IMG/VR virus record: IMGVR_UViG_3300037991_001277
Location: 1 to 64,000 of that record
From: a virus
Lineage: Duplodnaviria > Caudoviricetes
DNA: 64,000 nt
Strand: one strand, 5' to 3'
This document shows, in pieces, positions 3,082 through 33,553 of the stretch. Below the pieces are notes generated by a model. The model did no database searches, had not been told where the DNA came from, and was given only the letters and a program-made list of their open reading frames with translations. Position 1 is the stretch's first letter. The number at the start of each line of letters is the position of its first letter. The position numbers and the translations under genes are program-made.

Positions 3082-5073
3082 ATGCCGAGTGAAAACTACG
3101 ACTTCATCTCAGGGGATTCTCCTGATGAAATCGAGAAGTATTTTCAACTTTTGACAAAAATACCACAGGCATTCAAAGGTATCAAAGCAGGTGTAAAAAA
3201 TCTTGCTGGTAAAGTCGGTGTCAAAGGCGGAGGCTCGGTAACAGAAGCAGCAGGTGCTGCAAAAGAGGCAGCAGGTGCTGCTGAAGGTATGGCTAGTGCT
3301 GCTGAAGCAGTGGAGTCTGCTGCACCTAAGCCGAGTTTACCCAAAGCAAGTGATGGAACAGACAGCGTACCTTTACCTGAATCACCTGCTGCTGAACCAG
3401 CGGCTGAAATGCCTGAACCTGAAGAACCAAGTGGGGCTGGTGGTAACAAGACTGATTACAAAAAAATCGGTATGCAGTTAGCCGGACAGATGCAAGCACA
3501 AAATGCTCAGAGAAAACAAGCGCAAGAGCAGCGTGCTATGGAAATGGCTAGGCGTGGTGCATCGGTACAAACTGGTGAGCCAATGAACCTTGCTTGGCGT
3601 TTGCTCAAAAATATTGATGAAGTTCAATTGTGTCCAACTTGTCAAGGTGTTGGTTTTGGATGTAGGTATTGTAAAGGAACAGGGCTTGCTGATAATGAAC
3701 GATTTCATCCCGAAGATACAACTAATGAATATCCGGGTTATGATGAAGATTGGCCTTATCCAACAGATAAAAAAATAGGGCAAACTGTGCCGGATGCGCA
3801 AAAGACAGATGATGGAAAACCTATCACTTTTTTCCATAATACTGAAGATTGGCTTGCTTCAAGACCCGAACCCATCAAAATGCGAACTAATTCTCAAGAC
3901 CAACCTTCATTTATGTATATGCCTTTTGCGGGTGCAAGTAAAGAAATGAAAAACCCTGCGGCTAAGATTTTTCGCAGAAGCGAACCCATGAACCTTGTTT
4001 GGCGGTTGCTCAAAGAAGAAGATGATGAAGTTCCCGACCCTCGTAAGTTCAAAATGCCTCAAGAAGATTATGTCGAGGCACTAAGAGAAAGAGCGAAGAG
4101 AATCAAAGGGCGACAAGCAGACCCCAACATGGCTGAAAATACAGAAAATGTACCAATGGGTCTGAAAGAAAAAGTGCCATTTACTCAGCCACCGGGCGGT
4201 GGGCCTATTCAATTACCGACTAAATTAACGCCTCCTAATGCTAGTCAAGGAATACAAAGAAGAGTTCATCCATTTACAAGAGAGGGTACATTTGAAGGAT
4301 TACCACTAGATACACCTGACGCTGACCCTAAAAAATACTTCACTCGCAGTGAAGCGATGGATATTGCATATCAATTGTTAAAGTTTGAAGAACTAACAGA
4401 TATGCACGCACCTGCTCCAAGAAACTTCAATGAGTATTTTGGTATCAAAGATTCATGGGTGAGTTTACCAAAAGAGGGGATGGATGCACGACCTCAATTA
4501 TATGATGAAGTAGCCAACGCTATGAACATCGCTTACAAACCAGTGGGTGGTCACGATAAATACAGTGATGGTAATGATTTGAAAAATGAAAGCAAGCACG
4601 CTCGGTATGATATGATTGACAATGACCAAGACCCATATGTAGACGCAGCAAGAGTATTTTCTCAACAAGAGCAAGGGTTCAAAGCATCTATTACCGCACA
4701 TGACGGACAACCAGCAGCAAAGCGTGCTGCTGTAGACCATATGATGGAGCATATGCAAATACCGGGTCATTACATAGAAGTTAGTGGAGCATGGCCTAGA
4801 ATCTTTGACAAACAAGGTATGCAACCTATTACAGACTATGACCATATTAGAGAATTAGTAAACAGACCTTTGCGTGAAACTGAAACAGCACCGGGTACTT
4901 ACACTCGCAAAATAGGAGAGAATGAGCGAGAAAAACAAATATTTGGCTCACCAATGAGAGATGGTGCTACTTGGGCTGATGACTTTATGCAACAAGCAAC
5001 AGAAGCAAGTAGAAACAATTCGGCTCTAGTTTTGAATGATTATAATTTTCCAAAATCAGTAGGAGTGATGTAA
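3082..5073 (+). CDS. Modular polyprotein-like protein with three EPM..LLK tags, including a DnaJ-type CxxCxGxG zinc-finger module
   Basis: 663-aa ORF; tags TGEPMNLAWRLLK (3571), SEPMNLVWRLLK (3979), SEAMDIAYQLLK (4348); CPTCQGVGFGCRYCKGTG just after the first tag. Confidence 0.75.
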   Translation: MPSENYDFISGDSPDEIEKYFQLLTKIPQAFKGIKAGVKNLAGKVGVKGGGSVTEAAGAAKEAAGAAEGMASAAEAVESAAPKPSLPKASDGTDSVPLPESPAAEPAAEMPEPEEPSGAGGNKTDYKKIGMQLAGQMQAQNAQRKQAQEQRAMEMARRGASVQTGEPMNLAWRLLKNIDEVQLCPTCQGVGFGCRYCKGTGLADNERFHPEDTTNEYPGYDEDWPYPTDKKIGQTVPDAQKTDDGKPITFFHNTEDWLASRPEPIKMRTNSQDQPSFMYMPFAGASKEMKNPAAKIFRRSEPMNLVWRLLKEEDDEVPDPRKFKMPQEDYVEALRERAKRIKGRQADPNMAENTENVPMGLKEKVPFTQPPGGGPIQLPTKLTPPNASQGIQRRVHPFTREGTFEGLPLDTPDADPKKYFTRSEAMDIAYQLLKFEELTDMHAPAPRNFNEYFGIKDSWVSLPKEGMDARPQLYDEVANAMNIAYKPVGGHDKYSDGNDLKNESKHARYDMIDNDQDPYVDAARVFSQQEQGFKASITAHDGQPAAKRAAVDHMMEHMQIPGHYIEVSGAWPRIFDKQGMQPITDYDHIRELVNRPLRETETAPGTYTRKIGENEREKQIFGSPMRDGATWADDFMQQATEASRNNSALVLNDYNFPKSVGVM

Positions 5074-5074
5074 A

Positions 5075-5239
5075 ATGAAACCGTTTGAAATAGCATGGGA
5101 TTCGCTTGAAAAGAAATTATGCCCTGAAGGTAAAGCCGCTGCAAAACGCAAGTTCAAGGTTTATCCATCAGCATATGCTAATGGGTGGGCTGTGCAATAC
5201 TGCCGTGGTAAGTTCAGGAAAAAGGGGAAAAAGAAATGA
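5075..5239 (+). CDS. Small basic tagged protein, 54 aa, absent from the ORF track
   Basis: Manual translation MKPFEIAWDSLEKKLCPEGKAAAKRKFKVYPSAYANGWAVQYCRGKFRKKGKKK; AGGAGTGA upstream; stop overlaps the next ATG (ATGA). Confidence 0.8.
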   Translation: MKPFEIAWDSLEKKLCPEGKAAAKRKFKVYPSAYANGWAVQYCRGKFRKKGKKK

Positions 5240-5439
5240 TACCTCTTGAAGCAGCATGGGCTGTAATGAAAGCCAAAAAAGATGCACCAAATTACCGTAA
5301 GGCAACTGGGTCAAAAAAATGCGGTAACTGTAAAGCATGGGATTCGTCAAAAACTGACGACCCAATGACTGGTTACTGTGAGTGGTACGACTTTACTTGT
5401 AGAGCCGACCATGTATGTGATGCTTGGGCTGGTGAGTAA
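5236..5439 (+). CDS. Small tagged Cys-rich protein with HiPIP-like (4Fe-4S) or Zn-binding cysteine spacing
   Basis: Tag MIPLEAAWAVMKA, then PNYR...CGNC..W...GYC..Y......VCDAW. Confidence 0.55.
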   Translation: MIPLEAAWAVMKAKKDAPNYRKATGSKKCGNCKAWDSSKTDDPMTGYCEWYDFTCRADHVCDAWAGE

Positions 5440-5440
5440 A

Positions 5441-7612
5441 ATGCCTGAAGAGCCTCGCCCTTTTGCTCTAATACCTATGGAGGATTTATCAGAAATGTTG
5501 AATCCTAATTCAGACAAAATGATGAGGCTACTAGGTAAACACATCCCTAGAGAAATGCTTACTGCTGACCGAGCGCAAGAAGTCTTTAATGCGCTTAAAC
5601 GAGAAGCAGAAATAAGAGAGCGTGACCAAGTATATTTCCCTCTACCTGATGAGCAGCCGCTTAACCAGCAATCAATGTTTAGAACTGAAACAAAGTTTAG
5701 TCCTAAGTTCCAAGATATAATGACAGGCGAACCAATGAACCTTGCTTGGCGGTTGCTCAAAGAGTATGATATTGAAGATGTTAAGAGATTGCTTGTAGGT
5801 GAAGGTGCTCATAGAGATTGGATAGAAAGGAATGCAAAAAAACTTCAACCCGGCTCTAATAGAGATTTACCAAGACCTCATGCTCTTTTATCCCATAAAG
5901 AACTGAGAGAGTTAGAGGCGCAAATGCAATATGACCCTAATTCTTATTATGAAGGTGAAGAAAAAGAATATACAGACCCGCAAACGGGCGAAGTTAAAAC
6001 CTATAGGGAAAGTTTTTTCAAACCTCATTTCCAAGAGGTTCGTGATGAAATAGATTTAAGAGAATTAGAGAATACACCGTGGGAACTCCCTGCACCACAG
6101 ACATTCAATTTTTTAGGTGGTGAGAGCAAACCAAGTTCTACTACAAGTTTCACAACTGATATGAGTTTCGGTGAGCCTTCTACTCTTGAGAGCATAGAAG
6201 GTAAGAAAAATAGAGGTTTTCAGGATATTTACACAGGCGAACCAATGGATATTGCATTCCAACTACTCAAAGAAGATTCTCTTGACCCTGAAGAGAGGAC
6301 ACCGATTAAAGACGAGAAGGTCAATTATAAGTTTCCATCAGCAGGGCCATATTGGACTTTGAATGATAGGCAAAAGAGAATAGCAGATGCTGTAATAGAT
6401 TTACCAAGTGAATATTTATCTGAAGAAGGGTGGGATGGATATGACTTTGACCATTTATTTGCAGAGGGTCACGAAACTGTTCCCGACCAAGAATATGACC
6501 GGCTAGAAGCCGCACTAAGATACTTCAAGACATACATCAAAAACCACATGGCTCACCCCGATACTGATAAATCACCTAAGTTTTTAGAATCATGGGATGA
6601 CCCTCGCCATCCGTGGGCTATGGCTAGGCATATGGCGTTTTACAGAGATACTGAGCCATATGACCATTTTTCTGAAGATTTCAAAGAGGCTAACAAAAGC
6701 GAACCAATGGATTTAGCATTTGATGCAATTAAGAAAAATCTAAACCGATGGTTCAAGGAAAAGTGGGTTGATGTATCTCGTAAAGACAAGGATGGTAAGC
6801 ACCCACCATGCGGTAGAAGCAAGGCAAAAAAATCTAGTAAGGGCTATCCAAAATGCAGACCTAGTGTAAAGGTATCAAGTAAAACTCCAAAAACTTCAGG
6901 CTCAATGACTGAGGGGCAAAAGGCTGCTGCAACAAAACGCAAGCGCAGTAAAAAACAAGGTGTAGGTGGCAAGCCTACTATCGTAAAAGAAGATTTTCTG
7001 AGTGACCCTATGAGTGACTTTAACATGATGGTGGCTTTACAAGACGAAGCGTACAAATTGGCTGAATTGAATACGCCTTATTCTCGTGAAAAATATCCTG
7101 AGTATGATGACTATGTAGAGGAGATAGAATACCAAGGAGAAAACATTCTTATGCAAATGATGAACAAACCTGAGTATGCACATTTGAGAGAAAGATACAA
7201 GCAAAGTATACCAGTAATGACCGAAACAGATGAGTTTCCCCAAGACTTCATTAACGCAAACAAAGGTAGTCCGATAGAAATTGCATTTAGATTATTAAAA
7301 GCACCACGCATACCTCGTAAAAAAGGACAACCCGCTGGTTCAAAGAAACATTCTGATTTGTATACTGACGAAAATCCAAAAGGCACTATACATGGTTTAG
7401 GTTTCAAGAACCCAGCAAAGGCTCGCCAATCAGTATCTAAAATTAAAAACAGTAGCCGTAGTCATGCTCACAAAACACAGGCGGCTATTGCTATGGAACA
7501 AAGAGCACGAGAGATGGGTAAGAAACAAGAGGCCGGTGTTTATCGTAATTTTATTGAGCAACAAAAAAAGAAAACTCAAAATATGAAAAAGATGGTAGGT
7601 GTAAAACAATGA
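5441..7612 (+). CDS. Modular polyprotein-like protein with four tags, mixing acidic and very basic phage-type modules
   Basis: Track ORF 5378..7612; the ATG at 5441 follows GGTGAG and is the more likely start; tags at 5723, 6233, 6698 and 7265; basic modules NLNRWFKEKWVDV..CGR..YPKCRP and HSDLYTDENPKGTIHGLGF..MEQRA. Confidence 0.75.
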   Translation: MPEEPRPFALIPMEDLSEMLNPNSDKMMRLLGKHIPREMLTADRAQEVFNALKREAEIRERDQVYFPLPDEQPLNQQSMFRTETKFSPKFQDIMTGEPMNLAWRLLKEYDIEDVKRLLVGEGAHRDWIERNAKKLQPGSNRDLPRPHALLSHKELRELEAQMQYDPNSYYEGEEKEYTDPQTGEVKTYRESFFKPHFQEVRDEIDLRELENTPWELPAPQTFNFLGGESKPSSTTSFTTDMSFGEPSTLESIEGKKNRGFQDIYTGEPMDIAFQLLKEDSLDPEERTPIKDEKVNYKFPSAGPYWTLNDRQKRIADAVIDLPSEYLSEEGWDGYDFDHLFAEGHETVPDQEYDRLEAALRYFKTYIKNHMAHPDTDKSPKFLESWDDPRHPWAMARHMAFYRDTEPYDHFSEDFKEANKSEPMDLAFDAIKKNLNRWFKEKWVDVSRKDKDGKHPPCGRSKAKKSSKGYPKCRPSVKVSSKTPKTSGSMTEGQKAAATKRKRSKKQGVGGKPTIVKEDFLSDPMSDFNMMVALQDEAYKLAELNTPYSREKYPEYDDYVEEIEYQGENILMQMMNKPEYAHLRERYKQSIPVMTETDEFPQDFINANKGSPIEIAFRLLKAPRIPRKKGQPAGSKKHSDLYTDENPKGTIHGLGFKNPAKARQSVSKIKNSSRSHAHKTQAAIAMEQRAREMGKKQEAGVYRNFIEQQKKKTQNMKKMVGVKQ

Positions 7613-7923
7613 GTGCATTTGACGAAGCATGGGATTTGCTTGAAAAAGGCAAAAAGAAATCTAAGCCGTTTCATGGATATAACCCGAAACGGCATCACAA
7701 AAAAGGTGGATTAAACGCTAAAGGCAGAGCCAAGTTCAAGCGTGAAACTGGCGCAAACCTAAAGCCACCAGTTACAACTAAGCCATCCAAACTCAAGCCG
7801 GGTAGTAAAAGGGCAAAGAGGCGTAAATCATTTTGCGCTCGTATGGGTGGTATGAAAGGGCCGACCAGTAAGAAAGGTAAACTTACACCAAAAGGTGCAG
7901 CGTTAAAGAGATGGAATTGTTAG
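7609..7923 (+). CDS. Tagged, highly basic protein resembling the DUF6321-type phage family
   Basis: MSAFDEAWDLLEK, then GGLNAKGRA..NLKPPV..RRKSFCARM..LKRWNC; family recalled from motif, not searched. Confidence 0.65.
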   Translation: MSAFDEAWDLLEKGKKKSKPFHGYNPKRHHKKGGLNAKGRAKFKRETGANLKPPVTTKPSKLKPGSKRAKRRKSFCARMGGMKGPTSKKGKLTPKGAALKRWNC

Positions 7924-7924
7924 T

Positions 7925-8356
7925 ATGACAGATATTGGTATAATCCGTAAAGAGCGTAAATCTCCTGAAGCAAAGCGTCATAAAAAAGAATATGACACAA
8001 AGTATGAGTCATCGCCTGAGCGAATCAAATACCGAGAAGAGTTGAATAGAGAAAGACGAAAGCGTGGTATGTACGGTGACCACTCTCACCGTGACATTTC
8101 TCATACCGAAGGTGGTAAATTGACAGTAGAAGATGAGCACGATAATCGAGCACGACATTTCCGAGAGAAAGGCACAAAACGCCCTTTAACAAAAGGACTG
8201 AGAGGCGATTTAGAGTTGTTAAGAAATCTTATGAATGGGCCAATGGATGAGCAAGACAAAAAGATAGCACAGGCTCTTCTTACATCGTTAGATGACTACA
8301 AACAAGAAGAGGGTGGCGAAGATAGAAAAGAATTGATGCATCCTTATCCATTCTAA
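7925..8356 (+). CDS. Basic protein with an HNH-like (D-x-S-H...N-R-A-R) motif
   Basis: KEYDTKYESSPERIKYREELNRERRKRG..RDISHTEGG..DNRARH resembles small phage HNH-like proteins. Confidence 0.45.
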   Translation: MTDIGIIRKERKSPEAKRHKKEYDTKYESSPERIKYREELNRERRKRGMYGDHSHRDISHTEGGKLTVEDEHDNRARHFREKGTKRPLTKGLRGDLELLRNLMNGPMDEQDKKIAQALLTSLDDYKQEEGGEDRKELMHPYPF

Positions 8357-8460
8357 GTTGTCCGACTTGTCTAATGTCTGATATAGACAAATAATATATT
8401 CTTGTAAAATGTATAAACAATACAACGGACAACCCGGACAACAGCCCCAGCAACCTTTAT
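8357..8460 (+). promoter_or_regulatory. AT-rich promoter region with nested inverted repeats upstream of the GTPase operon
   Basis: GTTGTCCG (8357-8364) pairs with CGGACAAC (8426-8433 and 8435-8442); TTGTCTA (8367-8373) pairs with TAGACAA (8384-8390); AT-rich core with GTATAAA and TTTAT. Confidence 0.5.
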
Positions 8461-9076
8461 GGTGACCCCCGGAGTGGACATACCAGTGGACACTATGGAC
8501 TCAACTGACCATCACGAAGCAGAAATTAGGCTAATGGGATTGATTTTAGCCCAAAGCACACTTGTTGGAGTAGCAATCGGTATCTTTGATGCTGAGGTTT
8601 GGCTCAAACAAGATAGCGTTTGGATTAACGGATTTACTTATGCTATGGGTGCATTCTTTATGCAAGGAATCGCTTACTACTTTTTCAAAATGTTCTTTGA
8701 GCAAAATCTACAGGAAAAAGTACGACACGGTAACATTGAGAAACAAAGAAACCACCAATACCGTATGATGCAGCAACAGTTTGATAACCGTAGGGCTGAA
8801 ATGGAAATGCGAATGCAAGAAGCGCAACTTGAGCGTGAACTTCGCTGGATGGAGGAAAACCCCGGTCAGATGCCCCCAAGTTGGGGAGTAGCAGGTGGCT
8901 CTCCATCAATGGTAGGCTCATTTGATAGTAGGGGTGGAGGCTCTTCGGTCTTTGATAGTAGCCGTATTCCTACTCACGAGGCAAAAATCCAACAACCACT
9001 TACTCTTGGTATAGATGAAGAAGTACCACTGAAGAAAGACGGCACTCCTGACAAAAGGTATCAAAAGAAAGAGTGA
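8459..9076 (+). CDS. Membrane protein: two TM helices, a coiled coil and a C-terminal KKDGTPDKRY motif
   Basis: Hydrophobic segments LMGLILAQSTLVGVAIGIF and FTYAMGAFFMQGIAYYFF; Q/E/R/M coiled-coil stretch; true start may be GTG 8486 or ATG 8495. Confidence 0.75.
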   Translation: MVTPGVDIPVDTMDSTDHHEAEIRLMGLILAQSTLVGVAIGIFDAEVWLKQDSVWINGFTYAMGAFFMQGIAYYFFKMFFEQNLQEKVRHGNIEKQRNHQYRMMQQQFDNRRAEMEMRMQEAQLERELRWMEENPGQMPPSWGVAGGSPSMVGSFDSRGGGSSVFDSSRIPTHEAKIQQPLTLGIDEEVPLKKDGTPDKRYQKKE

Positions 9077-9085
9077 GGAATATGA

Positions 9086-9343
9086 ATGGGTCGAATCTTT
9101 CGTACACCTTCTGATGATGCAACTGAGAGTACCCTTCGTGCTATTCACATAGCCAACACTGTGGATAATGCCTACGAAAGAACATGGGGTTGGATAAAAA
9201 CTGTTCTTGCATCTCTTATCACAGCCTTAGTTGTTAGTGGTATTGAGTTTCATAATACCAGTTTCAGTGTTTATGAAAATACTGTAGAGTGGACTGTTGA
9301 TAAGTTAGACCAACTTGTTAATTGGCTAAAATGGTGGGATTGA
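9086..9343 (+). CDS. Small single-TM membrane protein
   Basis: 85-aa ORF; WGWIKTVLASLITALVVSGI; amphipathic C-terminus LVNWLKWWD; GAGG RBS. Confidence 0.7.
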   Translation: MGRIFRTPSDDATESTLRAIHIANTVDNAYERTWGWIKTVLASLITALVVSGIEFHNTSFSVYENTVEWTVDKLDQLVNWLKWWD

Positions 9344-9349
9344 TGTTCT

Positions 9350-10072
9350 ATGGTAGACGCAGGTGGCACAGCCTTAGTAGGCGCAGCGATGTGGGGTCAG
9401 AATCTCTATAATTCTTACAAACCAAGAAAAGTTGGTGTCTATGGAGCACCTATGGTTGGTAAAACTACGCTTGACCGTTACCTTACAACTCCGGGTGAAA
9501 TGGAGGAAATACCCGAAGGTGAAAGAACTACTCACTCTCGTATACTAAAAATTGGTAAGTATAAAATGCCAAAGCCAACGAGAAAAAGAGTATCTTGGCA
9601 AGGTGAAAGGCGAGTTGTATATTCTGCTGACATAGGGGGGCAAGAGCGTTTTTGGAATCTTTGGATTGAAGATATGGTTACTCGTGGTGTAGAAGCAATT
9701 GTCTACATTTTTGACGATAGAGCATTCAAAGGAGGAGATGAAGGCTTACAACAAATTGCAGGTTTTCGCTATCTTGTAGATTGTCTCATCAATAGAAACT
9801 ATCGCTATCGCTCATTTTGGTCGAGACTAAAGGGTAAAAAATACCATCCAAAAGTCATCATGTTAGTAGCGAATAAGGCTGACCGATTTTTTGACGAGAC
9901 TGCTTCAAAACTTTGGCACGATGGAAGAATAGGCGAGCACAAGATATTTGACCCATTTAGAGATGATTTAATTCGCTTACAAAAAGCAGGTATTCCTACT
10001 AGAAGGTCGTTTATGGCAACAAGAATAGGATGGAATGTAGAAAAGACAATGGTGAGTCTTTTGACCTCGTGA
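9350..10072 (+). CDS. Small Ras-superfamily (Arf/Rab-like) GTPase
   Basis: G1 GAPMVGKTT, G2 candidate ERTT, G3 DIGGQERF, G4 VANKAD, G5-like MATRIGWNV; hydrophobic N-terminal extension. Confidence 0.88.
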   Translation: MVDAGGTALVGAAMWGQNLYNSYKPRKVGVYGAPMVGKTTLDRYLTTPGEMEEIPEGERTTHSRILKIGKYKMPKPTRKRVSWQGERRVVYSADIGGQERFWNLWIEDMVTRGVEAIVYIFDDRAFKGGDEGLQQIAGFRYLVDCLINRNYRYRSFWSRLKGKKYHPKVIMLVANKADRFFDETASKLWHDGRIGEHKIFDPFRDDLIRLQKAGIPTRRSFMATRIGWNVEKTMVSLLTS

Positions 10073-10127
10073 CCCAAAAAATGACCCCATAGGTAGCCTT
10101 TTGAATAACAACTCTTTCGGTGAGGAT

Positions 10128-10325
10128 ATGTCAGGTAAGAACTCTTCAACAACATTGGTATCTACTGGCGGTGGTAGCCGTAGTCTTAGAACCACAGTTC
10201 CTATGTGGATAGTTGAGCATTTTGGGTTAAATGCTGGTGACGATGTTCATTGGAAGTTTGTTGTTCAAGAGGGGCAGATTGTTGTAGTAATGACTCCTAC
10301 GCCTGAACAGGTTGTGATAGGATGA
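10128..10325 (+). CDS. AbrB/MazE/SpoVT-like DNA-binding protein
   Basis: SLRTTVPMWIVEHFGLNAGDDVHW fits the swapped-hairpin pattern; ATG 10128 follows GGTGAGG (the track starts at TTG 10101). Confidence 0.75.
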   Translation: MSGKNSSTTLVSTGGGSRSLRTTVPMWIVEHFGLNAGDDVHWKFVVQEGQIVVVMTPTPEQVVIG

Positions 10326-11260
10326 TTAACTTTAGTAGACCTCAACAACAACAACATCTTAACGAAGCACAATTAGCAACTTTGGCTATGCAAGGTAACG
10401 ACCAACTTACTCAGGCTGCGTTACAAGAAATGCTAATGGCTCAACAAGGTATGCAAGAAGTTGCTGCTGCTCAGAATATAGAAGTCCCAAAAGTTAATTT
10501 TTATCCAAGTCGCCACCCTGACCCAAGAAAGGCTAGGCGTAAGGATATTAAGCAAGCCTACAAATTACTTCAACCAGCAAAGCGTTCAGTATTCAATCCT
10601 ATGAGGTGGTTGTTTGGTCGCAAATACAGATATGCAAAAGATACTGGTACTTGTGTTGTAGATGGTTGTAACTGTGCCAATTTAATTCAACATGATAATC
10701 TCTACATGAAAATCAGCGATGAGGAAACTGGTCGCTCTTTATGGGAAATGTATTGGCAAAACCCAGTTACAGGCCAGCCTGAAGCATTTATTGCTCAGGA
10801 TAAAGTAACCAGTGGTAGAAAATTAAAGGGAACATATTGCCCTGAGCATATGCATCTTTACCATCTTTTGGTAAAGTGGGAGGCCGAAGAGGATAAGCAA
10901 AATGAGATGAATCCGAGTCGCCTTCGTGATAAAGTAAAGAGAGGGGTATCAATTGTTACAGTTCCTATTTCATCTGTGAAGAAAAACGACCCGACACCTG
11001 CTATGCTACAAAAGTATGAGCCTTTCTTTGCTGAACTAGAAAGAGACGCAGGTAAAACAAAAGGTATCAATATACTACATTATGCAAACCCAGCAACTGG
11101 TCAAAACGATATAACGATGGTTGTATTCGACTTGCGTATATTCCAAATGGAACTACAACAAATGAATATGCCGACACAAGCATTTCAAGAGTTACTTAAC
11201 ACTGAAAATGCCAAAGTACAACAGAACATTGATGTTGGACTAACTACTGGGGATGCGTGA
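10322..11260 (+). CDS. Hypothetical protein with a Q-rich N-terminus and probable Zn site (CVVDGC...YCPEH)
   Basis: 312-aa ORF coupled by an ATGA overlap. Confidence 0.7.
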   Translation: MINFSRPQQQQHLNEAQLATLAMQGNDQLTQAALQEMLMAQQGMQEVAAAQNIEVPKVNFYPSRHPDPRKARRKDIKQAYKLLQPAKRSVFNPMRWLFGRKYRYAKDTGTCVVDGCNCANLIQHDNLYMKISDEETGRSLWEMYWQNPVTGQPEAFIAQDKVTSGRKLKGTYCPEHMHLYHLLVKWEAEEDKQNEMNPSRLRDKVKRGVSIVTVPISSVKKNDPTPAMLQKYEPFFAELERDAGKTKGINILHYANPATGQNDITMVVFDLRIFQMELQQMNMPTQAFQELLNTENAKVQQNIDVGLTTGDA

Positions 11261-11927
11261 TACGATGTTCAACTTCGGCAACCAACCACAGCAAAACAGC
11301 GGATTTAATCTTTCACAGACTGGAGGAGGGAACGGAGGATTAGGCTTGAATATGGGTACTCAAAGCAACTTTACTCTTGGTGCTCAGCCTCAGCAACAAA
11401 ATCAAGGTTTCATGGCAGGTATGATGGGTGGCATGGGAATGAGCCAACAGCAACAACATATGATGCAAAATGGTCAGATAGCCCCTCCTTCTGAAATGGA
11501 GTTAATGTCTGCACTTTTACAATCACAAAATCCTATTCACCGCTTCATAGCAACTGGTGGGCTTGCGTCTCTAGTTGATTTGATTGCTACAGCAACAAGT
11601 CTTAGTTTGATAAACATTCTAAAAAATGGCACATTTGTTATGGATGAAGATGAAGGAGGTATGAAACTAGACCCTGCTACTTTACCATCTGAGTTACAAA
11701 CTCTAAGCGCAGAAAATGTCAAAATGCTTCTTACTAATTTAGTATCACAAAGTCAGCAAACTGTTCAGCAAGCAGAAATGCAAAGACAGCAAATTATGGC
11801 TATGGCTCAACAATCAATGATGGGTAGTGCTCTTGGTGCTGCTTTACAAGATGAGGGTATGATGAATAAAGTCGGTGGCGGAATTGGTAGTGTCGCTCGT
11901 GGACTTATAGGACTACCAAGACAGTGA
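11253..11927 (+). CDS. Hypothetical Q/G/M-rich low-complexity protein with a hydrophobic central segment
   Basis: 224-aa ORF; F-N/G-Q-rich N-terminus; GGLASLVDLIATATSLSLINIL. Confidence 0.7.
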   Translation: MRDTMFNFGNQPQQNSGFNLSQTGGGNGGLGLNMGTQSNFTLGAQPQQQNQGFMAGMMGGMGMSQQQQHMMQNGQIAPPSEMELMSALLQSQNPIHRFIATGGLASLVDLIATATSLSLINILKNGTFVMDEDEGGMKLDPATLPSELQTLSAENVKMLLTNLVSQSQQTVQQAEMQRQQIMAMAQQSMMGSALGAALQDEGMMNKVGGGIGSVARGLIGLPRQ

Positions 11928-11936
11928 GGGAATAAT

Positions 11937-12185
11937 ATGCAACCGGGTAGTATGTCTGATTACAGCATGAGAATAAGTCAAGCGAGTAGCACTATATTTG
12001 CTCCAAGTAGAAATATCATTGTAGAAATGATAATGGTACAGTTTATTTCAATCATTATTGCTTGTGCATCTATCTTAGTTTTCAAGGGAGATTCAATGAG
12101 CAGCGGAGATGTTAGTGTATTTGTAGTAGGTATCTTTGGAGGGTTAGTTTTCCTGACTACTCTTTACTCCCGAATTACTCGGTAA
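11937..12185 (+). CDS. Small two-TM membrane protein (holin-like topology)
   Basis: IIVEMIMVQFISIIIACASILVF and VSVFVVGIFGGLVFLTTLY; basic C-terminus. Confidence 0.7.
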   Translation: MQPGSMSDYSMRISQASSTIFAPSRNIIVEMIMVQFISIIIACASILVFKGDSMSSGDVSVFVVGIFGGLVFLTTLYSRITR

Positions 12186-12428
12186 CCACTTGTCTATAGG
12201 ACAGCCAACTGAGGGCGCAAGTGCTTTAATTTTCATTACACAATTGCACAGTCGGCAAGTACCCATTCTTTTTTGCATATAAGGGCATTGATAACACTCA
12301 TCAAGCCTCTCCATGTATTCTTCTTTTGAAACTCTACGACCTTTCAGTGCGTCTTTTGAAGCATTAAGTAAATCTTTACCACGCCTTTTGAGAGGCTGTT
12401 TTGGGACTCTCTCGTAAGGTGGCAGCAT
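12144..12428 (-). CDS. Cys-rich zinc-binding protein (R-x-x-x-C-x-x-C...C-x-x-C-x-C...CP-x-x-KW; DUF6171-like)
   Basis: ERLDECYQCP..TCRLCNCVMKIKA..GCPIDKW; ATG at 12428 preceded by GGAGGT on the minus strand; the only convincing minus-strand gene. Confidence 0.7.
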   Translation of the reverse strand: MLPPYERVPKQPLKRRGKDLLNASKDALKGRRVSKEEYMERLDECYQCPYMQKRMGTCRLCNCVMKIKALAPSVGCPIDKWLPSNSGVKSSQEN

Positions 12429-12488
12429 GATACCTCCGAAAAGGTTCAGGAGAAAAAGCATTATGGGTAATGCTGCTTTAAGCGTGTC

Positions 12489-13172
12489 ATGGCGGAGGGT
12501 GGTGGTATCACAAAAAGGTCTTGCCCTTTGTGCCAACATCCTAGTCGTGCCGACTTAGAAAAGGGTCTGCTTGATGGTGAAATATCACCTAAACAACTTG
12601 ACAAAGATATGGGCTGGCGACTCAACACAACTGACCGTCATTTCCGTAATCACATGGGTCAATATCACATGGCTTCTAACCCTCAATGCAAAGTATGTGC
12701 TCATCCTGAAAGGGCTGATTTTGAGCGTAGATTCTTTGAGGATGGCTCTGAATCTGAGGCTATTGCTGAGGAACTTGGAATTGCTGAGTCATCAGTTTAT
12801 CATCATATGAAGCATCACTTTCAACCTTTAGTTCAAAGAAGTGCAGCCGCTGAAATTACATTAGTGGTGGGAGAAGAAATCAACGCACTCAGGTCAAATG
12901 TTGAATTACTTAATGTTAAACTAACTGAGTTACTAAATGAAGGTAGCGTGCATGAAGATGGTTTTGTTAGAGACGCAGTTTCTCTACACAAAGAGGTCAG
13001 AGAATCAATAAAGGACTTATTGAAGATGAATGAACAATGGAGTCCTACAACTGAAAACAATCAAATTAACAACACAATTAACATTCTCAAACTTGAACTT
13101 GGAAAAGAAAGTCCTGAATCTTGGGCTAGAGTTCGTAAACAACTATTAGAGCACGCAGGTGATATGAATTGA
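12489..13172 (+). CDS. Probable terminase small subunit or DNA-binding protein with two tandem CxxCxH...HxxxH Zn-HTH repeats and a coiled coil
   Basis: CPLCQHPSRADLE...RHFRNHM and CKVCAHPERADFE...HHMKHHF; C-terminal coiled coil; upstream of TerL. Confidence 0.55.
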   Translation: MAEGGGITKRSCPLCQHPSRADLEKGLLDGEISPKQLDKDMGWRLNTTDRHFRNHMGQYHMASNPQCKVCAHPERADFERRFFEDGSESEAIAEELGIAESSVYHHMKHHFQPLVQRSAAAEITLVVGEEINALRSNVELLNVKLTELLNEGSVHEDGFVRDAVSLHKEVRESIKDLLKMNEQWSPTTENNQINNTINILKLELGKESPESWARVRKQLLEHAGDMN

Positions 13173-13570
13173 TGCCAGTTCCAGTGCCTGATTTGTTGCA
13201 GATGACCCATCCGGGTTATTCAATGGTGGATAGTAAATTGGTTATTTCTGAAAATCATGTACCAATGTATCTTGATTTTTGTCGCTGCGTTATAGAAAGA
13301 TTTGAGCACTATGGTGAACTAAATATCACACCACCTGATTTATTCAAGTTGTTAGCAAAGTCTTTTCAGACCGTATTTGAAGATGACGACCCTACTACAT
13401 TTTTCCCCGCTTACAATCTCATACCTCGTTTGCTTGAAGAGTTTGAATATACGATGGAAAACATGACTTCGGCATTTCAAGATAGTCCGAGAATAATGTC
13501 GTTCTATAGAAAAATAAGCGAAAAGTTGCGACAGTGTTTTGAATACCATATCATGGGGGATAATACATGA
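13169..13570 (+). CDS. Hypothetical protein
   Basis: 133-aa ORF overlapping both neighbours; GGTGA upstream. Confidence 0.65.
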   Translation: MMPVPVPDLLQMTHPGYSMVDSKLVISENHVPMYLDFCRCVIERFEHYGELNITPPDLFKLLAKSFQTVFEDDDPTTFFPAYNLIPRLLEEFEYTMENMTSAFQDSPRIMSFYRKISEKLRQCFEYHIMGDNT

Positions 13571-15669
13571 CGGAGGGTATGATGGGTAGAACCTCTGATA
13601 CGAGGATATACAATCCTCGCTCAGAATCCTCTGAAATGTTTAGGGCTAATCACGAAGATGAAAGGCCACCAAGCGGTATTGAAGATGCTAAAAGCAAGGA
13701 AAGACGCAAAGACAAAAAACAAGCCAAGCGAGAGCGAGAGGAAAAAGAGGATAAGAAAATCCGTCATATCAAAGTTCGCAGACACCATCTTGGTCTTGGT
13801 GATAGCAAACCTAGTGAAGATATGGATGAAGAAGAAGAGCAATACAAACCTCGTGGCTCTACAGATAATCCAGCAAATCAAACAATGCCATCAGGTGCTG
13901 GTGGATTCCTAAGTAGTCTTGCTATGGGTGCAAAAGGGCCGGGTGCTGCTGGGGGTCAAACGATTCAAATGTCTGAGCCTATGGATATGGCTTGGCGGTT
14001 ATTGAAATACGATGAATATTATGACGATGACGATGACGATGACTTTTACCATGAAAGTTTTTACTATGACGATGACGGAAATCCTCGTGACCCTCGTAAA
14101 AATCCCGAACATGAATACCATGAAGAAAATATGTATGATGAAGCGGGTGAAGAACTAAAAGATGAAATTGAACAACTTAGAGCATCTCCCGGCTTCCTTA
14201 ACAAACCTGAACCAGCGGTTACTGATAAAGAGAAAGAAGAAGAGGAACTTAAACAAAGTATTGCAGATTTCCTTTCTAGTCAAAAACTAGCAGGTGAGCC
14301 TATGGATATGGCTTGGCAACTACTCAAAATGTCTGAGGCTGAAGCCTTACATTACCACCATCCTGATATTGAAGCACAGCGTCATATTGATAAAAAGAGG
14401 AATGTTTCAGGACACCTCACAGGTCACATGAAGCAAGGTCTATCACGCAAAATAAGACAAGATGCGATAGATAGAGCACAAAGAAATGTATTAGCGGGTA
14501 TTCCTGAATATCTACGATTTGCACATGGCACTCATCCTGAAATGATGAGACGCAGGGCTATGATACCTGATGATAAAACACCTTTGCTACCTACTACTGC
14601 TGATGAGAGAAATAAAATTGCTGATTTGGAAGAGGTTGCTAGGAAAATTAAACTAAACCCTCAAACTGTTTATCATCAACAAATGTACTCTACTCAGATG
14701 CTACCACCCGGCCCATTCACTGAACCCGAACCTGAACCTGAACCTGATATTCAAGATTCGCCTATACCCGGAATGGCGTTTGTTAATGGTCAATTAGTGC
14801 CTGACCCTCGTGTGAAAAAAAGTAGTCCTATGGACTTTGCTTGGGATATGATTCAAAAAAAAGAATCTAAGCGTAGCGTAGCCCGTAGACGCAAGAAAGA
14901 GGGTTATGCTAAGTGGCGACCATCTACTGGTCAGTTTGAAAAGCCAAAAGGCGGTGGTGACCAACGAAACATTACATCAAGACGCTCTAAAAACATCAGT
15001 CGTAATCTACCGATGGGGCGTAAAACTGGATTAAATCGTTCACATTTTTCTGTTGAGTTTTCACACCGAGGTCTTGCTAGTAAACAACCTCCGTCTAAAG
15101 ACCCTCAAAAATACAGACCTTATCTTGCTTCACAAGATGCTCGTAAACTCTTGGGTGGAGTGAGAACAGTATACACACCACACATGAGACATAGCCAACG
15201 CTCCTTTATTGCTGGCCCTACAGGTGGTGGTCGCTTGACCAACACGCTTCAATACCCTCGTATTCCAAGACCAAGACTACATGCTGTTCGTGCTCCAAGT
15301 ATCGTACCACCTAAGATGAAAGTACCTCGCTTAGCACGACCTAAGATGCCGAGCATGATAACAATGAGTGAGGACACTCCTCAGCACAGTGATATTCTCA
15401 AAGCCAATGCATATCAAGCAGCATTGATGCGAATTGCTCTGAAAGAGATTCGTGAATTAATGCGTGAAAAGAAAGACAAGGATAGTAAAAAGAAAGGTAA
15501 GGGTGAACCCGACACCGCTGGTGCTGCAAGCACTTTACCCAACTATCCAGCCAATAATCCCAAGCAAACAAATCGAAATCAGGGTGCTACAGAAGATGCA
15601 AATAATGAGCCACGAGATTATGGGCTTGACCCCGGTGCTCTTGTAGGTAGAGGGAGTGGGCGAGTTTGA
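13567..15669 (+). CDS. Modular protein with three EPMDMAW-type tags, an acidic module and an Arg/Lys/Pro-rich module
   Basis: SEPMDMAWRLLK (13972), GEPMDMAWQLLK (14293), SSPMDFAWDMIQK (14821); poly-Asp tract; basic C-terminal third; DILKAN near the end. Confidence 0.75.
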   Translation: MTEGMMGRTSDTRIYNPRSESSEMFRANHEDERPPSGIEDAKSKERRKDKKQAKREREEKEDKKIRHIKVRRHHLGLGDSKPSEDMDEEEEQYKPRGSTDNPANQTMPSGAGGFLSSLAMGAKGPGAAGGQTIQMSEPMDMAWRLLKYDEYYDDDDDDDFYHESFYYDDDGNPRDPRKNPEHEYHEENMYDEAGEELKDEIEQLRASPGFLNKPEPAVTDKEKEEEELKQSIADFLSSQKLAGEPMDMAWQLLKMSEAEALHYHHPDIEAQRHIDKKRNVSGHLTGHMKQGLSRKIRQDAIDRAQRNVLAGIPEYLRFAHGTHPEMMRRRAMIPDDKTPLLPTTADERNKIADLEEVARKIKLNPQTVYHQQMYSTQMLPPGPFTEPEPEPEPDIQDSPIPGMAFVNGQLVPDPRVKKSSPMDFAWDMIQKKESKRSVARRRKKEGYAKWRPSTGQFEKPKGGGDQRNITSRRSKNISRNLPMGRKTGLNRSHFSVEFSHRGLASKQPPSKDPQKYRPYLASQDARKLLGGVRTVYTPHMRHSQRSFIAGPTGGGRLTNTLQYPRIPRPRLHAVRAPSIVPPKMKVPRLARPKMPSMITMSEDTPQHSDILKANAYQAALMRIALKEIRELMREKKDKDSKKKGKGEPDTAGAASTLPNYPANNPKQTNRNQGATEDANNEPRDYGLDPGALVGRGSGRV

Positions 15670-20685: not shown

Positions 20686-20954
20686 AAGAAAGTAAAGTAG
20701 GCGGAAAGAAACACGGAATGGTACTAATCATTTCAGTTGGTAAAAAAGGTGACAAAGACCCTACTCATGCTGCTGACCCTGATACAAAAAAGAAGGCTCT
20801 ACCAATTCCACCTGAAGTTCTCCAAACAGGTCTTTTAGCAGGGCTTGGTGGTGCTGCCGTTGGTCATTTCATGGCATGGCTAACAAATAGAATGGATGCT
20901 CGCTCAACAGCAGGTTACACTCAAACAGAAGAGGGGTGGGAAAGAAATGAGTGA
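20682..20954 (+). CDS. Small hypothetical protein with one hydrophobic segment
   Basis: ATGA overlap with the terL stop; GLLAGLGGAAVGHFMAWL. Confidence 0.55.
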   Translation: MKESKVGGKKHGMVLIISVGKKGDKDPTHAADPDTKKKALPIPPEVLQTGLLAGLGGAAVGHFMAWLTNRMDARSTAGYTQTEEGWERNE

Positions 20955-33522: not shown

Positions 33523-33553
33523 TAACAAAAAATAGGAGATGAAAAATATGGCA
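33523..33553 (+). promoter_or_regulatory. Leader/RBS repeated before the MCP and the next gene
   Basis: TAACAAAAAATAGGAGATGAAAAATATGGCA here; TAACAAAAAAATATAGGAGATGAAAAAATATGGCA at 34730-34764. Confidence 0.65.

What the first reader, a model, noticed from the sequence alone, without database searches (positions are those of the whole stretch)
8459..12185. Viral operon built around an Arf/Rab-like small GTPase with membrane proteins: candidate membrane-remodelling or egress machine
Seen: seven co-oriented genes encode a 2-TM coiled-coil protein, a 1-TM protein, a small GTPase with G1, G3 and G4 intact and a hydrophobic N-terminal extension, an AbrB-like regulator, a Q-rich Zn protein, a Q/G/M-rich low-complexity protein and a 2-TM protein. 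No endolysin is recognisable in the window. Established: Arf/Sar1 GTPases use an N-terminal amphipathic helix to recruit coats and bend membranes; a small GTPase has been linked to extracellular-vesicle formation in haloarchaea; how tailed viruses exit wall-less or S-layer archaea is poorly understood. Inference: this may be a GTPase-timed lysis, budding or membrane-compartment system of a tailed archaeal virus. It would also bear on the distribution of 'eukaryotic-signature' GTPases.
Basis: partly seen in the sequence, partly recalled or inferred. Interest (0 to 1): 0.85.

Follow-up and report, generated by a model that had tools for sequence, protein, structure and literature searches.

The report
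Viral Arf-like GTPase membrane gene cassette
A 105-kb tailed virus of the magrovirus type, a group assigned to abundant ocean archaea, carries its own very divergent Arf-like GTP switch in a conserved block with small membrane proteins, an untested candidate for how such viruses act on or leave through the host membrane.

Summary
Seven tightly packed, co-oriented genes at 8459-12185 encode two small membrane proteins, a 240-aa small GTPase, an AbrB/MazE-type protein, a Cys/His orphan protein, a Q/G/M-rich protein and a 2-TM protein.

All seven are found in the same order in 77-80 of 80 related IMG/VR loci. A five-gene core (g1, g2, GTPase, g5, g6) survives in relatives whose GTPase is only 36-40% identical. 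In one clade it sits at the other end of the structural arm.

G1, G3 (D, GG) and G4 are invariant in 72 of 72 unique family members. The catalytic-Gln position varies: Q52/E14/D6.

By profile the nearest relatives are Arf-type GTPases of Asgard archaea. Pfam's Arf cut-off is not met, and a tree gives no supported sister.

The viral profile matched none of 200 further genomes of the presumed host order, against 78 of 201 genomes in an Asgard-titled MAG's phylum.

Function is untested. My best guess, at 0.4, is a GTP-switched membrane module acting late in infection, probably in release.

This scan reported the same cassette earlier on at least a dozen other genomes.

The parts
8409..8467 (+). 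Putative promoter region of the cassette: TATA-like ATGTATAAAC (8409-8418) and a conserved element CTTTATGGTGACC (8455-8467) about 28-40 nt ahead of the likely true start of g1 (8495)
   Evidence: MAFFT alignment of 120 nt upstream of g1 from the window and 29 diverse loci. Positions of these two elements are conserved at >=80% while the flanks do not align. The exact 13-mer occurs once in the window. Its role as a promoter is inference.
8459..9076 (+). g1: membrane protein with two hydrophobic segments (25-43, about 56-80), a long charged helical stretch and a Gly/Ser-rich tail. Likely true start Met13 at 8495
   Evidence: ORF. TM scan. Family consensus starts at Met13, and TM2 and the stretch RMQEAQLERELRWME are conserved. 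Found in 77 of 80 loci. HMM hits in distant clades at E 6e-7 to 5e-15.
9086..9343 (+). g2: 85-aa protein with one central TM segment (37-55)
   Evidence: Found in 79 of 80 loci. Weak HMM hits (E 2e-4 to 5e-4) to 72-75-aa 1-TM ORFs at the same position in L092, L093 and L094.
9350..10072 (+). g3: 240-aa small GTPase with an N-terminal uncharged helix (4-23), a long insert in the switch-I region and a basic insert before G4
   Evidence: Motifs. AF2 model pLDDT 86.7. Foldseek hits to Ras, Rab, Rho and ArfR at E about 1e-8. Profile against PDB: GerdArfR1 (8OUN) at 5.5e-6, Arl8 at about 1e-4. hhalign to Asgard Arf-type groups at 97-98.6%. Found in 80 of 80 loci.
10101..10325 (+). g4: 74-aa SpoVT/AbrB (MazE)-type domain protein, an accessory of this clade only
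   Evidence: PF04014 at E 4e-4 for the window's protein. 19 of 24 members hit at E<=0.01, best 4.1e-6. Found in 79 of 80 close loci. No ORF lies between the GTPase and g5 in L085-L088 and L092-L094.
10322..11260 (+). g5: 312-aa orphan protein with a Q-rich N-terminus, conserved Cys/His and an invariant Arg72. It follows the GTPase directly, with overlapping stop and start, in the L085-L088 and L094 loci
   Evidence: Alignment A3. AF2 pLDDT 75.6. No PDB sequence hit and no Foldseek PDB hit at E<1. One weak BFVD hit. 639 clusters, none with a Pfam domain among the 120 listed. Found in 80 of 80 loci. HMM E 1e-24 to 5e-46 in distant clades.
11253..11927 (+). g6: 224-aa protein with a Q/G/M-rich low-complexity N-terminal half and a conserved C-terminal half holding one moderately hydrophobic helix (about 99-122)
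   Evidence: Found in 80 of 80 loci. HMM E 6e-19 to 1e-23 in L092 and L093. blastp E 5e-6 to the ORF at the same position in L088.
11937..12185 (+). g7: 82-aa protein with two TM segments and a short basic C-terminus (YSRITR), holin-like in size and layout only
   Evidence: Found in 80 of 80 loci. HMM E 2e-10 and 6.5e-9 in L093 and L092. No HMM hit in L085-L088 or L094.

Best explanation
The block is one transcription unit of a magrovirus-type archaeal tailed virus. It encodes a GTP-switched membrane module.

Shown: the genes, their conservation as a block, an intact guanine-nucleotide-binding site, an N-terminal helix on the GTPase, and three small membrane proteins.

Inferred: in the GTP state the GTPase exposes its N-terminal helix and docks on the host cytoplasmic membrane, where g1, g2 and g7 sit. 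g5, its most constant neighbour, is its effector or regulator. g6 supplies a multivalent low-complexity scaffold.

The cassette lies on the strand and arm of the virion and packaging genes. No ordinary lysis genes were recognised among the ORFs scanned. I therefore think it acts late, most likely to time or carry out disruption of the membrane for virion release.
For: - Tight packing, with gaps of -8 to 28 nt. SD-like GAGG motifs precede the internal genes g2 and g7, and none precedes g1.
- A conserved upstream element lies ahead of g1. A convergent gene ends the unit.
- g1 to g7 are in the same order in 77-80 of 80 loci.
- The core g1-g2-GTPase-g5-g6 is kept at 36-40% GTPase identity. In L085-L088 and L094 it lies next to the thermosome gene; for L094 a homologue of the window genome's last + strand gene lies upstream too.
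- The GTPase is the best-conserved cassette gene, at median 74% identity. g5 follows at 67%.
- G1, G3 (D, GG) and G4 are 72 of 72.
- A confident Ras-like fold follows a helix at residues 4-23. All 29 full-length members keep an uncharged or amphipathic N-terminal segment.
- Arf-type proteins are the nearest relatives.
- Precedents, passages read: the ArvA GTPase drives vesicle formation in Haloferax (PMC10927574). Asgard ArfR binds membranes through its N-terminal helix (bioRxiv 10.1101/2024.02.28.582541). Egress of head-tailed archaeal viruses is uncharacterised and holins remain elusive (PMC10791045).
Against: - There is no functional data of any kind.
- No partner matches a holin, endolysin, GAP, GEF or coat family.
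- g7, the most holin-like gene, gave no HMM hit in one clade.
- The position of the catalytic Gln varies (Q52/E14/D6 of 72; His or Ala in distant members), so a normal GAP-driven cycle is uncertain.
- The hydrophobic moment of the window's N-terminal helix is modest at 0.25, and its pLDDT is only 52-67.
- To my recollection, no known lysis cassette includes a GTPase.
- Late timing is inferred from gene position alone.
Confidence: 0.4

Rival explanations
1. The cassette remodels the host membrane during infection rather than breaking it. The Arf/Sar1-like switch recruits g5 and g6 to the membrane to build a membrane-attached assembly or replication site, or to shed vesicles, by analogy with ArvA-driven vesicle formation.
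For: - Arf-type relatives are nearest.
- ArvA precedent with an operon of GTPase plus Zn-ribbon protein (PMC10927574).
- g6 has a Q/G/M-rich low-complexity half suited to multivalent assemblies.
- In the L085-L088 and L094 loci the cassette sits directly after the thermosome gene.
Against: - No coat-like or ArvB/ArvC-like domain at E<=1.
- g5 has no fold match.
- To my knowledge the presumed hosts have no endomembranes.
- There is no experimental hint.
Confidence: 0.25
2. The membrane proteins are virion-borne entry (ejection) proteins, or they block superinfection. The GTPase regulates their insertion. The cassette belongs to the set of virion cargo genes that flank it.
For:
- From recollection, phage ejection proteins often have TM segments.
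Against: - All 8 of 8 strict tag matches lie in flanking ORFs (3082-5073, 5378-7612, 13567-15669) and none lies in g1 to g7.
- An AbrB-type regulator and a cytosolic GTP switch are unlikely virion cargo.
- The cassette keeps its composition when moved to another neighbourhood.
Confidence: 0.12
3. The cassette is a toxin-antitoxin-like or anti-defence module. The AbrB/MazE-type protein neutralises or regulates a GTPase-based effector.
For: g4 belongs to the SpoVT/AbrB (MazE antitoxin) Pfam family in 19 of 24 members, and it sits next to the GTPase.
Against: - g4 is missing from both distant clades while the rest is kept.
- 0 of 7 proteins hit PADLOC at E<=0.1.
- The five-gene core with membrane proteins does not look like a two-gene TA pair.
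Confidence: 0.05
4. The genes are neighbours only through general genome collinearity and do not work together.
For: The 80 close loci are collinear well beyond the cassette. g9 and g11 are also found in 80 of 80.
Against: - The core is kept with translational coupling (GTPase stop overlaps g5 start) in clades that share little else by blastp.
- It is also kept in a different neighbourhood.
Confidence: 0.05

Closest known systems
Arf-family small GTPases, especially Asgard archaeal ArfR (GerdArfR1, PDB 8OUN/8OUM) and eukaryotic Arl8
   Same: - Ras-like fold.
- A helix directly ahead of strand 1.
- G3 with a double Gly and Trp seven residues on: DIGGQERFWNLW against DxGGQxxxRxxW (alignments).
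- Best PDB profile hits are 8OUN at 5.5e-6 and Arl8A at 9e-5.
   Different: - 240 aa instead of about 180, with about 30 extra residues in the switch-I region and a basic insert before G4.
- The Pfam Arf score is 10.1 bits against a cut-off of 22.3.
- The Gln position is variable.
- The tree gives no supported sister.
- It is encoded by a virus assigned to a non-Asgard host.
Asgard ~290-aa proteins with an N-terminal CxxC...HxDH domain fused to an Arf-type GTPase (loci L107, L110, L111, L114), named by no source here
   Same: They are the closest cellular relatives found: hhalign 98.6%, E 5e-16, 30% identity over 132 columns. They share the switch-II string GGQxDFWxLW. Their best Pfam family is Arf, above the cut-off.
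   Different: - They carry a fused N-terminal Cys/His domain that is unrelated to g5 (hhalign probability 0.03).
- No cassette partners lie within the roughly 1.5 kb held on each side.
- They lack the viral inserts.
ArvA-ArvB-ArvC vesiculation operon of Haloferax volcanii (PMC10927574)
   Same: A small GTPase with an N-terminal helix, in an operon with a Cys-rich (Zn-ribbon) protein, acting on the archaeal cytoplasmic membrane (passages read).
   Different: - No DUF2072 or DUF2073 hit in g1 to g7 at E<=1.
- The viral profile found nothing in 200 further genomes of the presumed host order.
- The viral cassette adds three membrane proteins and a low-complexity protein.
Phage holin-based lysis cassettes
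   Same: Small 1-2 TM proteins with a charged C-terminus (g7, g2) in a late operon near the packaging genes.
   Different: - No endolysin.
- No PHROG lysis family hit at E<=0.1.
- From recollection, lysis cassettes do not include a GTPase.
Arf-type GTPases in a putative mobile region of Atabeyarchaeia (PMC11529989)
   Same: Arf-like GTPases carried on a mobile genetic element of archaea (passages read).
   Different: That case is an integrated region of an Asgard genome with ordinary Arf-clade proteins. This one is a lytic-type tailed virus with a far more divergent protein in a fixed membrane cassette.

Membership tests
Ras-superfamily small GTPase | G1 P-loop GxxxxGK[ST] | tested here: met
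   GAPMVGKTT. G32, G37, K38, T39 and T40 are 72 of 72.
Ras-superfamily small GTPase | G3 DxxG and G4 NKxD (guanine specificity) | tested here: met
   D94, G96, G97 and N175-K176-A177-D178 are all 72 of 72.
Ras-superfamily small GTPase | Ras-like alpha/beta fold | tested here: met
   AF2 pLDDT 86.7. Foldseek gives 1209 PDB matches at E<=0.001, led by Rab1, RhoC, Ras and ArfR, with target TM-scores of 0.6-0.69.
Ras-superfamily small GTPase | Binds and hydrolyses GTP | not testable with these tools
   Needs purified protein. The catalytic-Gln position is Q52/E14/D6 of 72.
Arf family (Arf/Arl/Sar1/ArfR) | Reaches the Pfam PF00025 gathering score | tested here: not met
   10.1 bits against 22.3. 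Only 10 of 30 members match at E<=1, and Roc (20) and MMR_HSR1 (16) match more members. The model also rings in 9 of 14 control genomes, so it is not very specific.
Arf family (Arf/Arl/Sar1/ArfR) | N-terminal amphipathic helix directly before strand 1 | tested here: inconclusive
   A helix at 4-23 is predicted, with pLDDT 52-67. The segment is uncharged. Its hydrophobic moment is 0.25 in the window and up to 0.5 in distant members. No TM-grade hydrophobicity.
Arf family (Arf/Arl/Sar1/ArfR) | Switch-II signature DxGGQ(H) followed by Trp seven residues on | tested here: met
   DIGGQERFWNLW aligns to the Arl8 and ArfR strings. GG and W105 are conserved. That this string marks the family is recalled, not tested.
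Arf family (Arf/Arl/Sar1/ArfR) | Branches inside the Arf/ArfR clade in a tree | tested here: inconclusive
   Quick IQ-TREE on 57 rows (18 viral, 39 Asgard). The viral rows form one group (SH-aLRT 100) on a long stem with no supported sister. No eukaryotic, MglA or ArvA references were available.
Arf family (Arf/Arl/Sar1/ArfR) | Interswitch toggle coupling nucleotide state to helix release | not testable with these tools
   Needs GDP-bound and GTP-bound structures.
ArvABC vesiculation system | ArvB (DUF2073) and ArvC (DUF2072) partners beside the GTPase | tested here: not met
   Neither family appears among the Pfam hits of g1 to g7 at E<=1.
Holin-endolysin lysis cassette | Recognisable endolysin, or a holin family, next to the small TM proteins | tested here: not met
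   Pfam, PHROGs and NCBIfam give no such hit for g1 to g7.
ArfGAP | ArfGap zinc-finger domain in g5 | tested here: not met
   No ArfGap hit at E<=1. The g5 profile finds 0 PDB sequences at E<=1. Cys spacing is C-x4-C-x-C ... C-P-E-H.
SpoVT/AbrB (PF04014) | Domain match for g4 | tested here: inconclusive
   The window's protein scores 20.7 bits against a 24.7 cut-off. 19 of 24 members hit at E<=0.01, best 4.1e-6. The profile finds no AbrB chain in the PDB.
Magrovirus-type archaeal tailed virus | About 100-kb genome, HK97-type capsid protein nearest to haloviruses, PolB and a chaperonin | tested here: met
   105,554 bases. TerL, portal, protease and MCP. PolB and thermosome. All 11 MCP hits in GenBank phage records are archaeal tailed viruses, the best being HVTV-1 and HCTV-1/5 at 33-35%. 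This matches the description in PMC5434244 (passages). I built no tree against reference magroviruses.

The most novel reading that the evidence does not exclude
Viruses of the magrovirus group, reported as among the most abundant marine planktonic viruses (PMC10160649), carry a self-contained membrane machine driven by an Arf-type GTPase (switch, membrane anchors, orphan effector, low-complexity scaffold). It carries out virion release or vesiculation in hosts that seem to lack any such GTPase. If so, a 'eukaryotic-signature' membrane switch works in a prokaryotic virus, and viruses carry Arf-type GTPases between archaeal lineages (Asgard-like relatives, Poseidoniales-assigned viruses).
Probability: 0.25. 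Interest if true: 0.88.

Novelty: new variant of a known kind. Interest (0 to 1): 0.7.

Why it matters
How head-tailed archaeal viruses leave their cells is an open question (PMC10791045, passages read). Magroviruses are reported as possibly the third most abundant group of marine planktonic viruses (PMC10160649, passage).

This cassette gives that question a concrete, clonable candidate: seven genes, five of them core.

It also bears on the distribution of Arf-type GTPases. These are held to be almost exclusive to Asgard archaea and eukaryotes (bioRxiv 10.1101/2024.02.28.582541, passages read). Here a very divergent relative is fixed in a virus family, and the sampled genomes of the assigned host order show no counterpart.

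The GTPase nature is already in automatic annotation: JGI names some clusters 'GTPase SAR1 family protein'. No paper I could search discusses the gene or the cassette.

Tried and rejected
Complex prediction. GTPase (A2) with g5 residues 50-290 (A3): verdict 'no answer', score 0.00. This is no evidence either way.

Expression. The look-up of sequencing runs, kind rna, listed no RNA holder.

Fold of g5.
- Foldseek against PDB gave nothing at E<1.
- BFVD gave one weak unnamed hit: E 1.6e-4, TM 0.24/0.35, rmsd 22.
- The ESM Atlas gave no usable hit and holds no model.
- Libraries pdb_via_wide and pdb_via were not on the machine.

Defence. 0 of 7 proteins hit PADLOC.

GenBank phages. tblastn of the GTPase found no match in 50,697 records at E<=1e-5.

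Host link by thermosome. The viral thermosome is 39-41% identical to those of three genomes of the Poseidoniales-centred order and 37-38% to an Asgard-phylum genome. This does not discriminate.

Promoter motif. The 13-mer ahead of g1 is not a general late motif. There is 1 exact match in the window. With one mismatch there are 20 matches against 9 expected, mostly on the other strand.

g5 and the N-terminal Cys/His domain of the Asgard fusion proteins are unrelated (hhalign probability 0.03).

Cassette-partner HMMs found nothing at E<=1 in the ORFs beside the Asgard GTPases. Only about 1.5 kb each side was held.

Tree. It was a quick search with Asgard references only. Rows L128 and L132 (no ORF with both P-loop and NKxD by my regex) and L144 (no G4 after the P-loop) were left out. 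It gave no supported sister for the viral clade.

HMMs. They used only unique ORFs whose blastp alignment covered at least 60% of the query.

P0008 gave no IMG/VR locus. The contexts of P0007, P0022, P0030 and P0044 were not examined.

Literature.
- 'magroviruses' + 'GTPase': 0 papers.
- 'archaeal virus' + 'small GTPase' + 'Caudoviricetes': 3 papers. I read passages of two; for the third (PMC11431627) I saw the listing only.
- 'GTP' or 'GTPase' occurs 0 times in the main text of PMC5434244, PMC11706807, PMC10160649 and PMC8651126.
- Supplementary tables were closed. They may list the gene.

Full report
WHAT THE WINDOW IS

The window is the first 64 kb of a 105,554-base IMG/VR virus record that is rated 99% complete. 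Recognised genes:
- Large terminase at 19201-20685 and portal at 23115-24881.
- Prohead protease at 32119-33510 and an HK97-type capsid protein at 33539-34723.
- Beyond the window, on the other strand: a family-B DNA polymerase, a PD-(D/E)XK nuclease and a thermosome-type chaperonin.

The capsid protein's only matches among 50,697 GenBank phage records are 11 archaeal tailed viruses. The best are the roughly 102-kb haloviruses HVTV-1 and HCTV-1/5, at 33-35% identity.

This is the picture given for magroviruses, the viruses assigned to Marine Group II (Poseidoniales) archaea (PMC5434244, passages read). I built no tree against reference magroviruses, so 'magrovirus-type' is a description and not a formal placement.

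THE OBSERVATION

They are packed with gaps of 9, 6, 28, -4, -8 and 9 nt. A 102-nt gap precedes g1, and a convergent gene (12144-12539, minus strand, DUF6171-like) follows g7.

Hydrophobicity scans find membrane segments in g1, g2 and g7 and none in the GTPase. SD-like GAGG strings precede the internal genes g2 and g7 but not g1.

Upstream of g1, two short elements are conserved across 30 otherwise unalignable upstream regions. They are ATGTATAAAC at 8409-8418 and CTTTATGGTGACC at 8455-8467. The protein-family consensus begins at Met13. I read this as a promoter with a short-leader or leaderless first gene that starts at 8495. That reading is inference.

THE GTPASE

Single-sequence searches barely see it:
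- Pfam: Roc at E 0.0058, Arf at 0.56.
- PDB: 8OUN at 0.012.
- A phmmer scan of 1.84 billion representatives found 75 proteins at E<=0.001. Judged by their lengths and by alignment of the longer ones, they look like members or fragments of the same family.

The family is large. A profile search gave 500 clusters at E<=0.001, and the best 120 listed are all of this family. JGI names several of them 'GTPase SAR1 family protein'.

Over 72 unique members from related loci:
- The P-loop, D94, G96, G97 and NKAD are invariant.
- T60 and H62 are invariant.
- T77, just before strand 2, is Thr or Ser in all.
- The position of the catalytic Gln is Q in 52, E in 14 and D in 6. Distant members have His or Ala there.

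So guanine-nucleotide binding is under strong constraint, while the usual hydrolysis residue is not.

The AlphaFold2 model is confident (pLDDT 86.7). It has a helix at 4-23, a poorly ordered insert of about 30 residues in the switch-I region, and a helical basic insert before G4. Foldseek finds the generic small-GTPase fold and does not discriminate between subfamilies.

WHICH SUBFAMILY

A profile of 30 members finds, among PDB sequences:
- The Asgard archaeal Arf protein GerdArfR1 (8OUN, E 5.5e-6). The identity of that entry is from bioRxiv 10.1101/2024.02.28.582541.
- Then Arl8A/B (9e-5 to 3e-3).
- Then Rab33B (2e-3).

The switch-II string DIGGQERFWNLW aligns to the Arl8 and ArfR strings.

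No member reaches Pfam's Arf cut-off. More members touch Roc (20 of 30) and MMR_HSR1 (16) than Arf (10).

I then searched whole genomes with the viral profile.
- In 201 genomes of the order centred on a Poseidoniales single-cell assembly, only that assembly matched, and only on its own 106-kb virus-like contig.
- In 201 genomes of the phylum of an Asgard-titled MAG, 78 matched at E<=0.01.

Part of this contrast must reflect the many small GTPases of those genomes: 34-42 PF00025 matches in each of five.

The best cellular matches fall into three groups:
1. Proteins of about 290 aa with an N-terminal CxxC...HxDH domain fused to an Arf-type GTPase: hhalign 98.6%, E 5e-16, sharing GGQxDFWxLW.
2. 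Proteins of about 215 aa with DCPGD in G3 and an insert before G4: 97.9%, E 4e-13.
3. ArfR-like proteins with a C-terminal extension: 97.3%.

A Ras-like protein of the same MAG scores lower: 95%, E 4e-8.

All three groups have Arf as their best Pfam family, above the cut-off. That model also rings in 9 of 14 control genomes.

A quick maximum-likelihood tree of 57 rows keeps the 18 viral rows together (SH-aLRT 100) on a long stem with no supported sister.

Verdict on subfamily: this is a very divergent Ras-superfamily GTPase whose nearest relatives are Arf-type. Arf-family membership is not shown.

THE CASSETTE AS A UNIT

tblastn of each product against 80 related IMG/VR loci (GTPase 66-98% identical) finds the following, always in the same order and strand:

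| Gene | Loci with a hit (of 80) |
|---|---|
| g1 | 77 |
| g2 | 79 |
| GTPase | 80 |
| g4 | 79 |
| g5 | 80 |
| g6 | 80 |
| g7 | 80 |

The three loci without g1 begin less than 300 nt upstream of the GTPase.

These loci are collinear beyond the cassette too, so the informative cases are the distant ones.

- L092 and L093 (GTPase 37-39% identical; L093 is the contig of the Poseidoniales single-cell assembly). The order is g1 (2 TM), g2 (1 TM), GTPase, g5, g6, g7 (2 TM), then the HTH gene. There is no AbrB gene.
- L085-L088 and L094 (34-36% by blastp for L088 and L094). The order is thermosome, a short ORF, g1, g2-like, GTPase, g5 (GTPase stop overlapping its start) and a g6-like N/Q/G/M-rich protein. 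There is no AbrB and no g7 hit.

In L094 the genes upstream correspond to the window genome's last + strand gene (64451-67153) and to its thermosome. In that clade, therefore, the core sits at the other end of the structural arm.

Five genes travel together. g7 was found in two of the three clades. AbrB is a clade-specific addition.

THE PARTNERS

- g5 is the second best conserved gene, at median 67% identity against 74% for the GTPase. It has no Pfam, PDB-sequence or fold match. It has 639 relatives, and the 120 listed have no Pfam domain and no name beyond 'hypothetical'. It has an invariant Arg72 in a confident helix and conserved Cys/His.
- g4 is SpoVT/AbrB-like in 19 of 24 members.
- g6 is half low-complexity.
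- None of the seven hits PADLOC or a PHROG of known function.

MECHANISM

Shown: the genes, the block, the nucleotide-binding site, the helix and the membrane segments.

Inferred: the GTPase cycles on and off the membrane through its N-terminal helix, as Arf, ArfR and ArvA are reported or proposed to do. There it meets g1, g2 and g7, while g5 and g6 act as effector or regulator and scaffold.

Three things point to a late function at the membrane, most simply release (confidence 0.4):
- The position in the virion and packaging arm.
- The holin-like size and layout of g7 and g2.
- The lack of recognised lysis genes among the 28 window ORFs scanned.

Membrane remodelling without lysis (0.25) and an entry or exclusion role (0.12) remain open. 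A toxin-antitoxin reading and mere collinearity are unlikely.

COMPARISON AND NOVELTY

The closest known things are:
- Arf/ArfR GTPases, for the switch.
- The ArvABC vesiculation operon, for the idea of a GTPase plus a Cys-rich partner at an archaeal membrane.
- Holin cassettes, for layout only.

Defining features of the last two were tested and not met.

A precedent for Arf-type GTPases on an archaeal mobile element exists in Atabeyarchaeia (PMC11529989).

No paper I could search mentions this gene or cassette. Supplements were closed and may list it. JGI's automatic name shows that the GTPase nature is already in public annotation.

Within this scan the same cassette has been reported on at least a dozen other genomes, with the same general reading.
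- The contrast between the host order and the Asgard-titled MAG's phylum.
- The Asgard fusion proteins as nearest relatives.
- The variable Gln position.
- The relocated five-gene core next to the thermosome.
- The likely promoter and corrected start of g1.

Noticed in passing
window 3577-14824 (ORFs 3082-5073, 5378-7612, 13567-15669): A repeated peptide tag of the form (G/S)EPM(D/N)xA(W/F)xLLK occurs 8 times by a strict regex. All copies are on the + strand in three large ORFs that flank the cassette, and none is in g1 to g7.
   Followed up: partly
window 12144-12539 (-): The only minus-strand gene in this stretch. It is 131 aa with CxxC pairs, DUF6171-like (E 1.2e-5) and matches phrog_13558 (1.3e-10). 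It overlaps the end of g7 and the start of the HTH gene at 12489. It is found in 40 of 80 related loci by tblastn. In L092 and L093 a + strand ORF of 88-94 aa, Cys-rich at least in L093, occupies that place instead.
   Followed up: partly
window 12489-13172 (+): A 227-aa protein with two CxxC-type motifs and an HTH (HTH_20 at 8.6e-8), and a weak hit to a small-terminase PHROG (0.087). It is found in 80 of 80 loci and in L092 and L093. It may be the small terminase or a late regulator.
   Followed up: no
window 20896-21861 (+): An HMGL-like (HMG-CoA lyase family) gene sits between terminase and portal (PF00682, E 1.6e-28). As I recall, archaeal membrane lipids derive from HMG-CoA, so a link to membrane biology is conceivable. 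It was also noted earlier (e1-6236361).
   Followed up: no
window 44476-62682 (+): A single 6068-aa ORF downstream of the tail-tube-like gene. It was not scanned.
   Followed up: no
L093 (Poseidoniales single-cell assembly, contig of 106,262 bases): A virus-sized contig with a distant version of the cassette lies in a single-cell assembly titled Poseidoniales. This is direct, though single, support for the host assignment of this wider virus group. Four other genome-contig hits lie in MAGs titled Parvibaculum (two contigs), Maricaulis or Flavobacteriales, and one in an Asgard-titled MAG. These are probably binning errors.
   Followed up: partly
L107, L110, L111, L114, L133 (Asgard-phylum genomes): A group of proteins of about 290-298 aa fuses an N-terminal CxxC...HxDH domain and a basic helix to an Arf-type GTPase carrying GGQxDFWxLW. 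No source here names them, and I did not look for them in the literature.
   Followed up: partly
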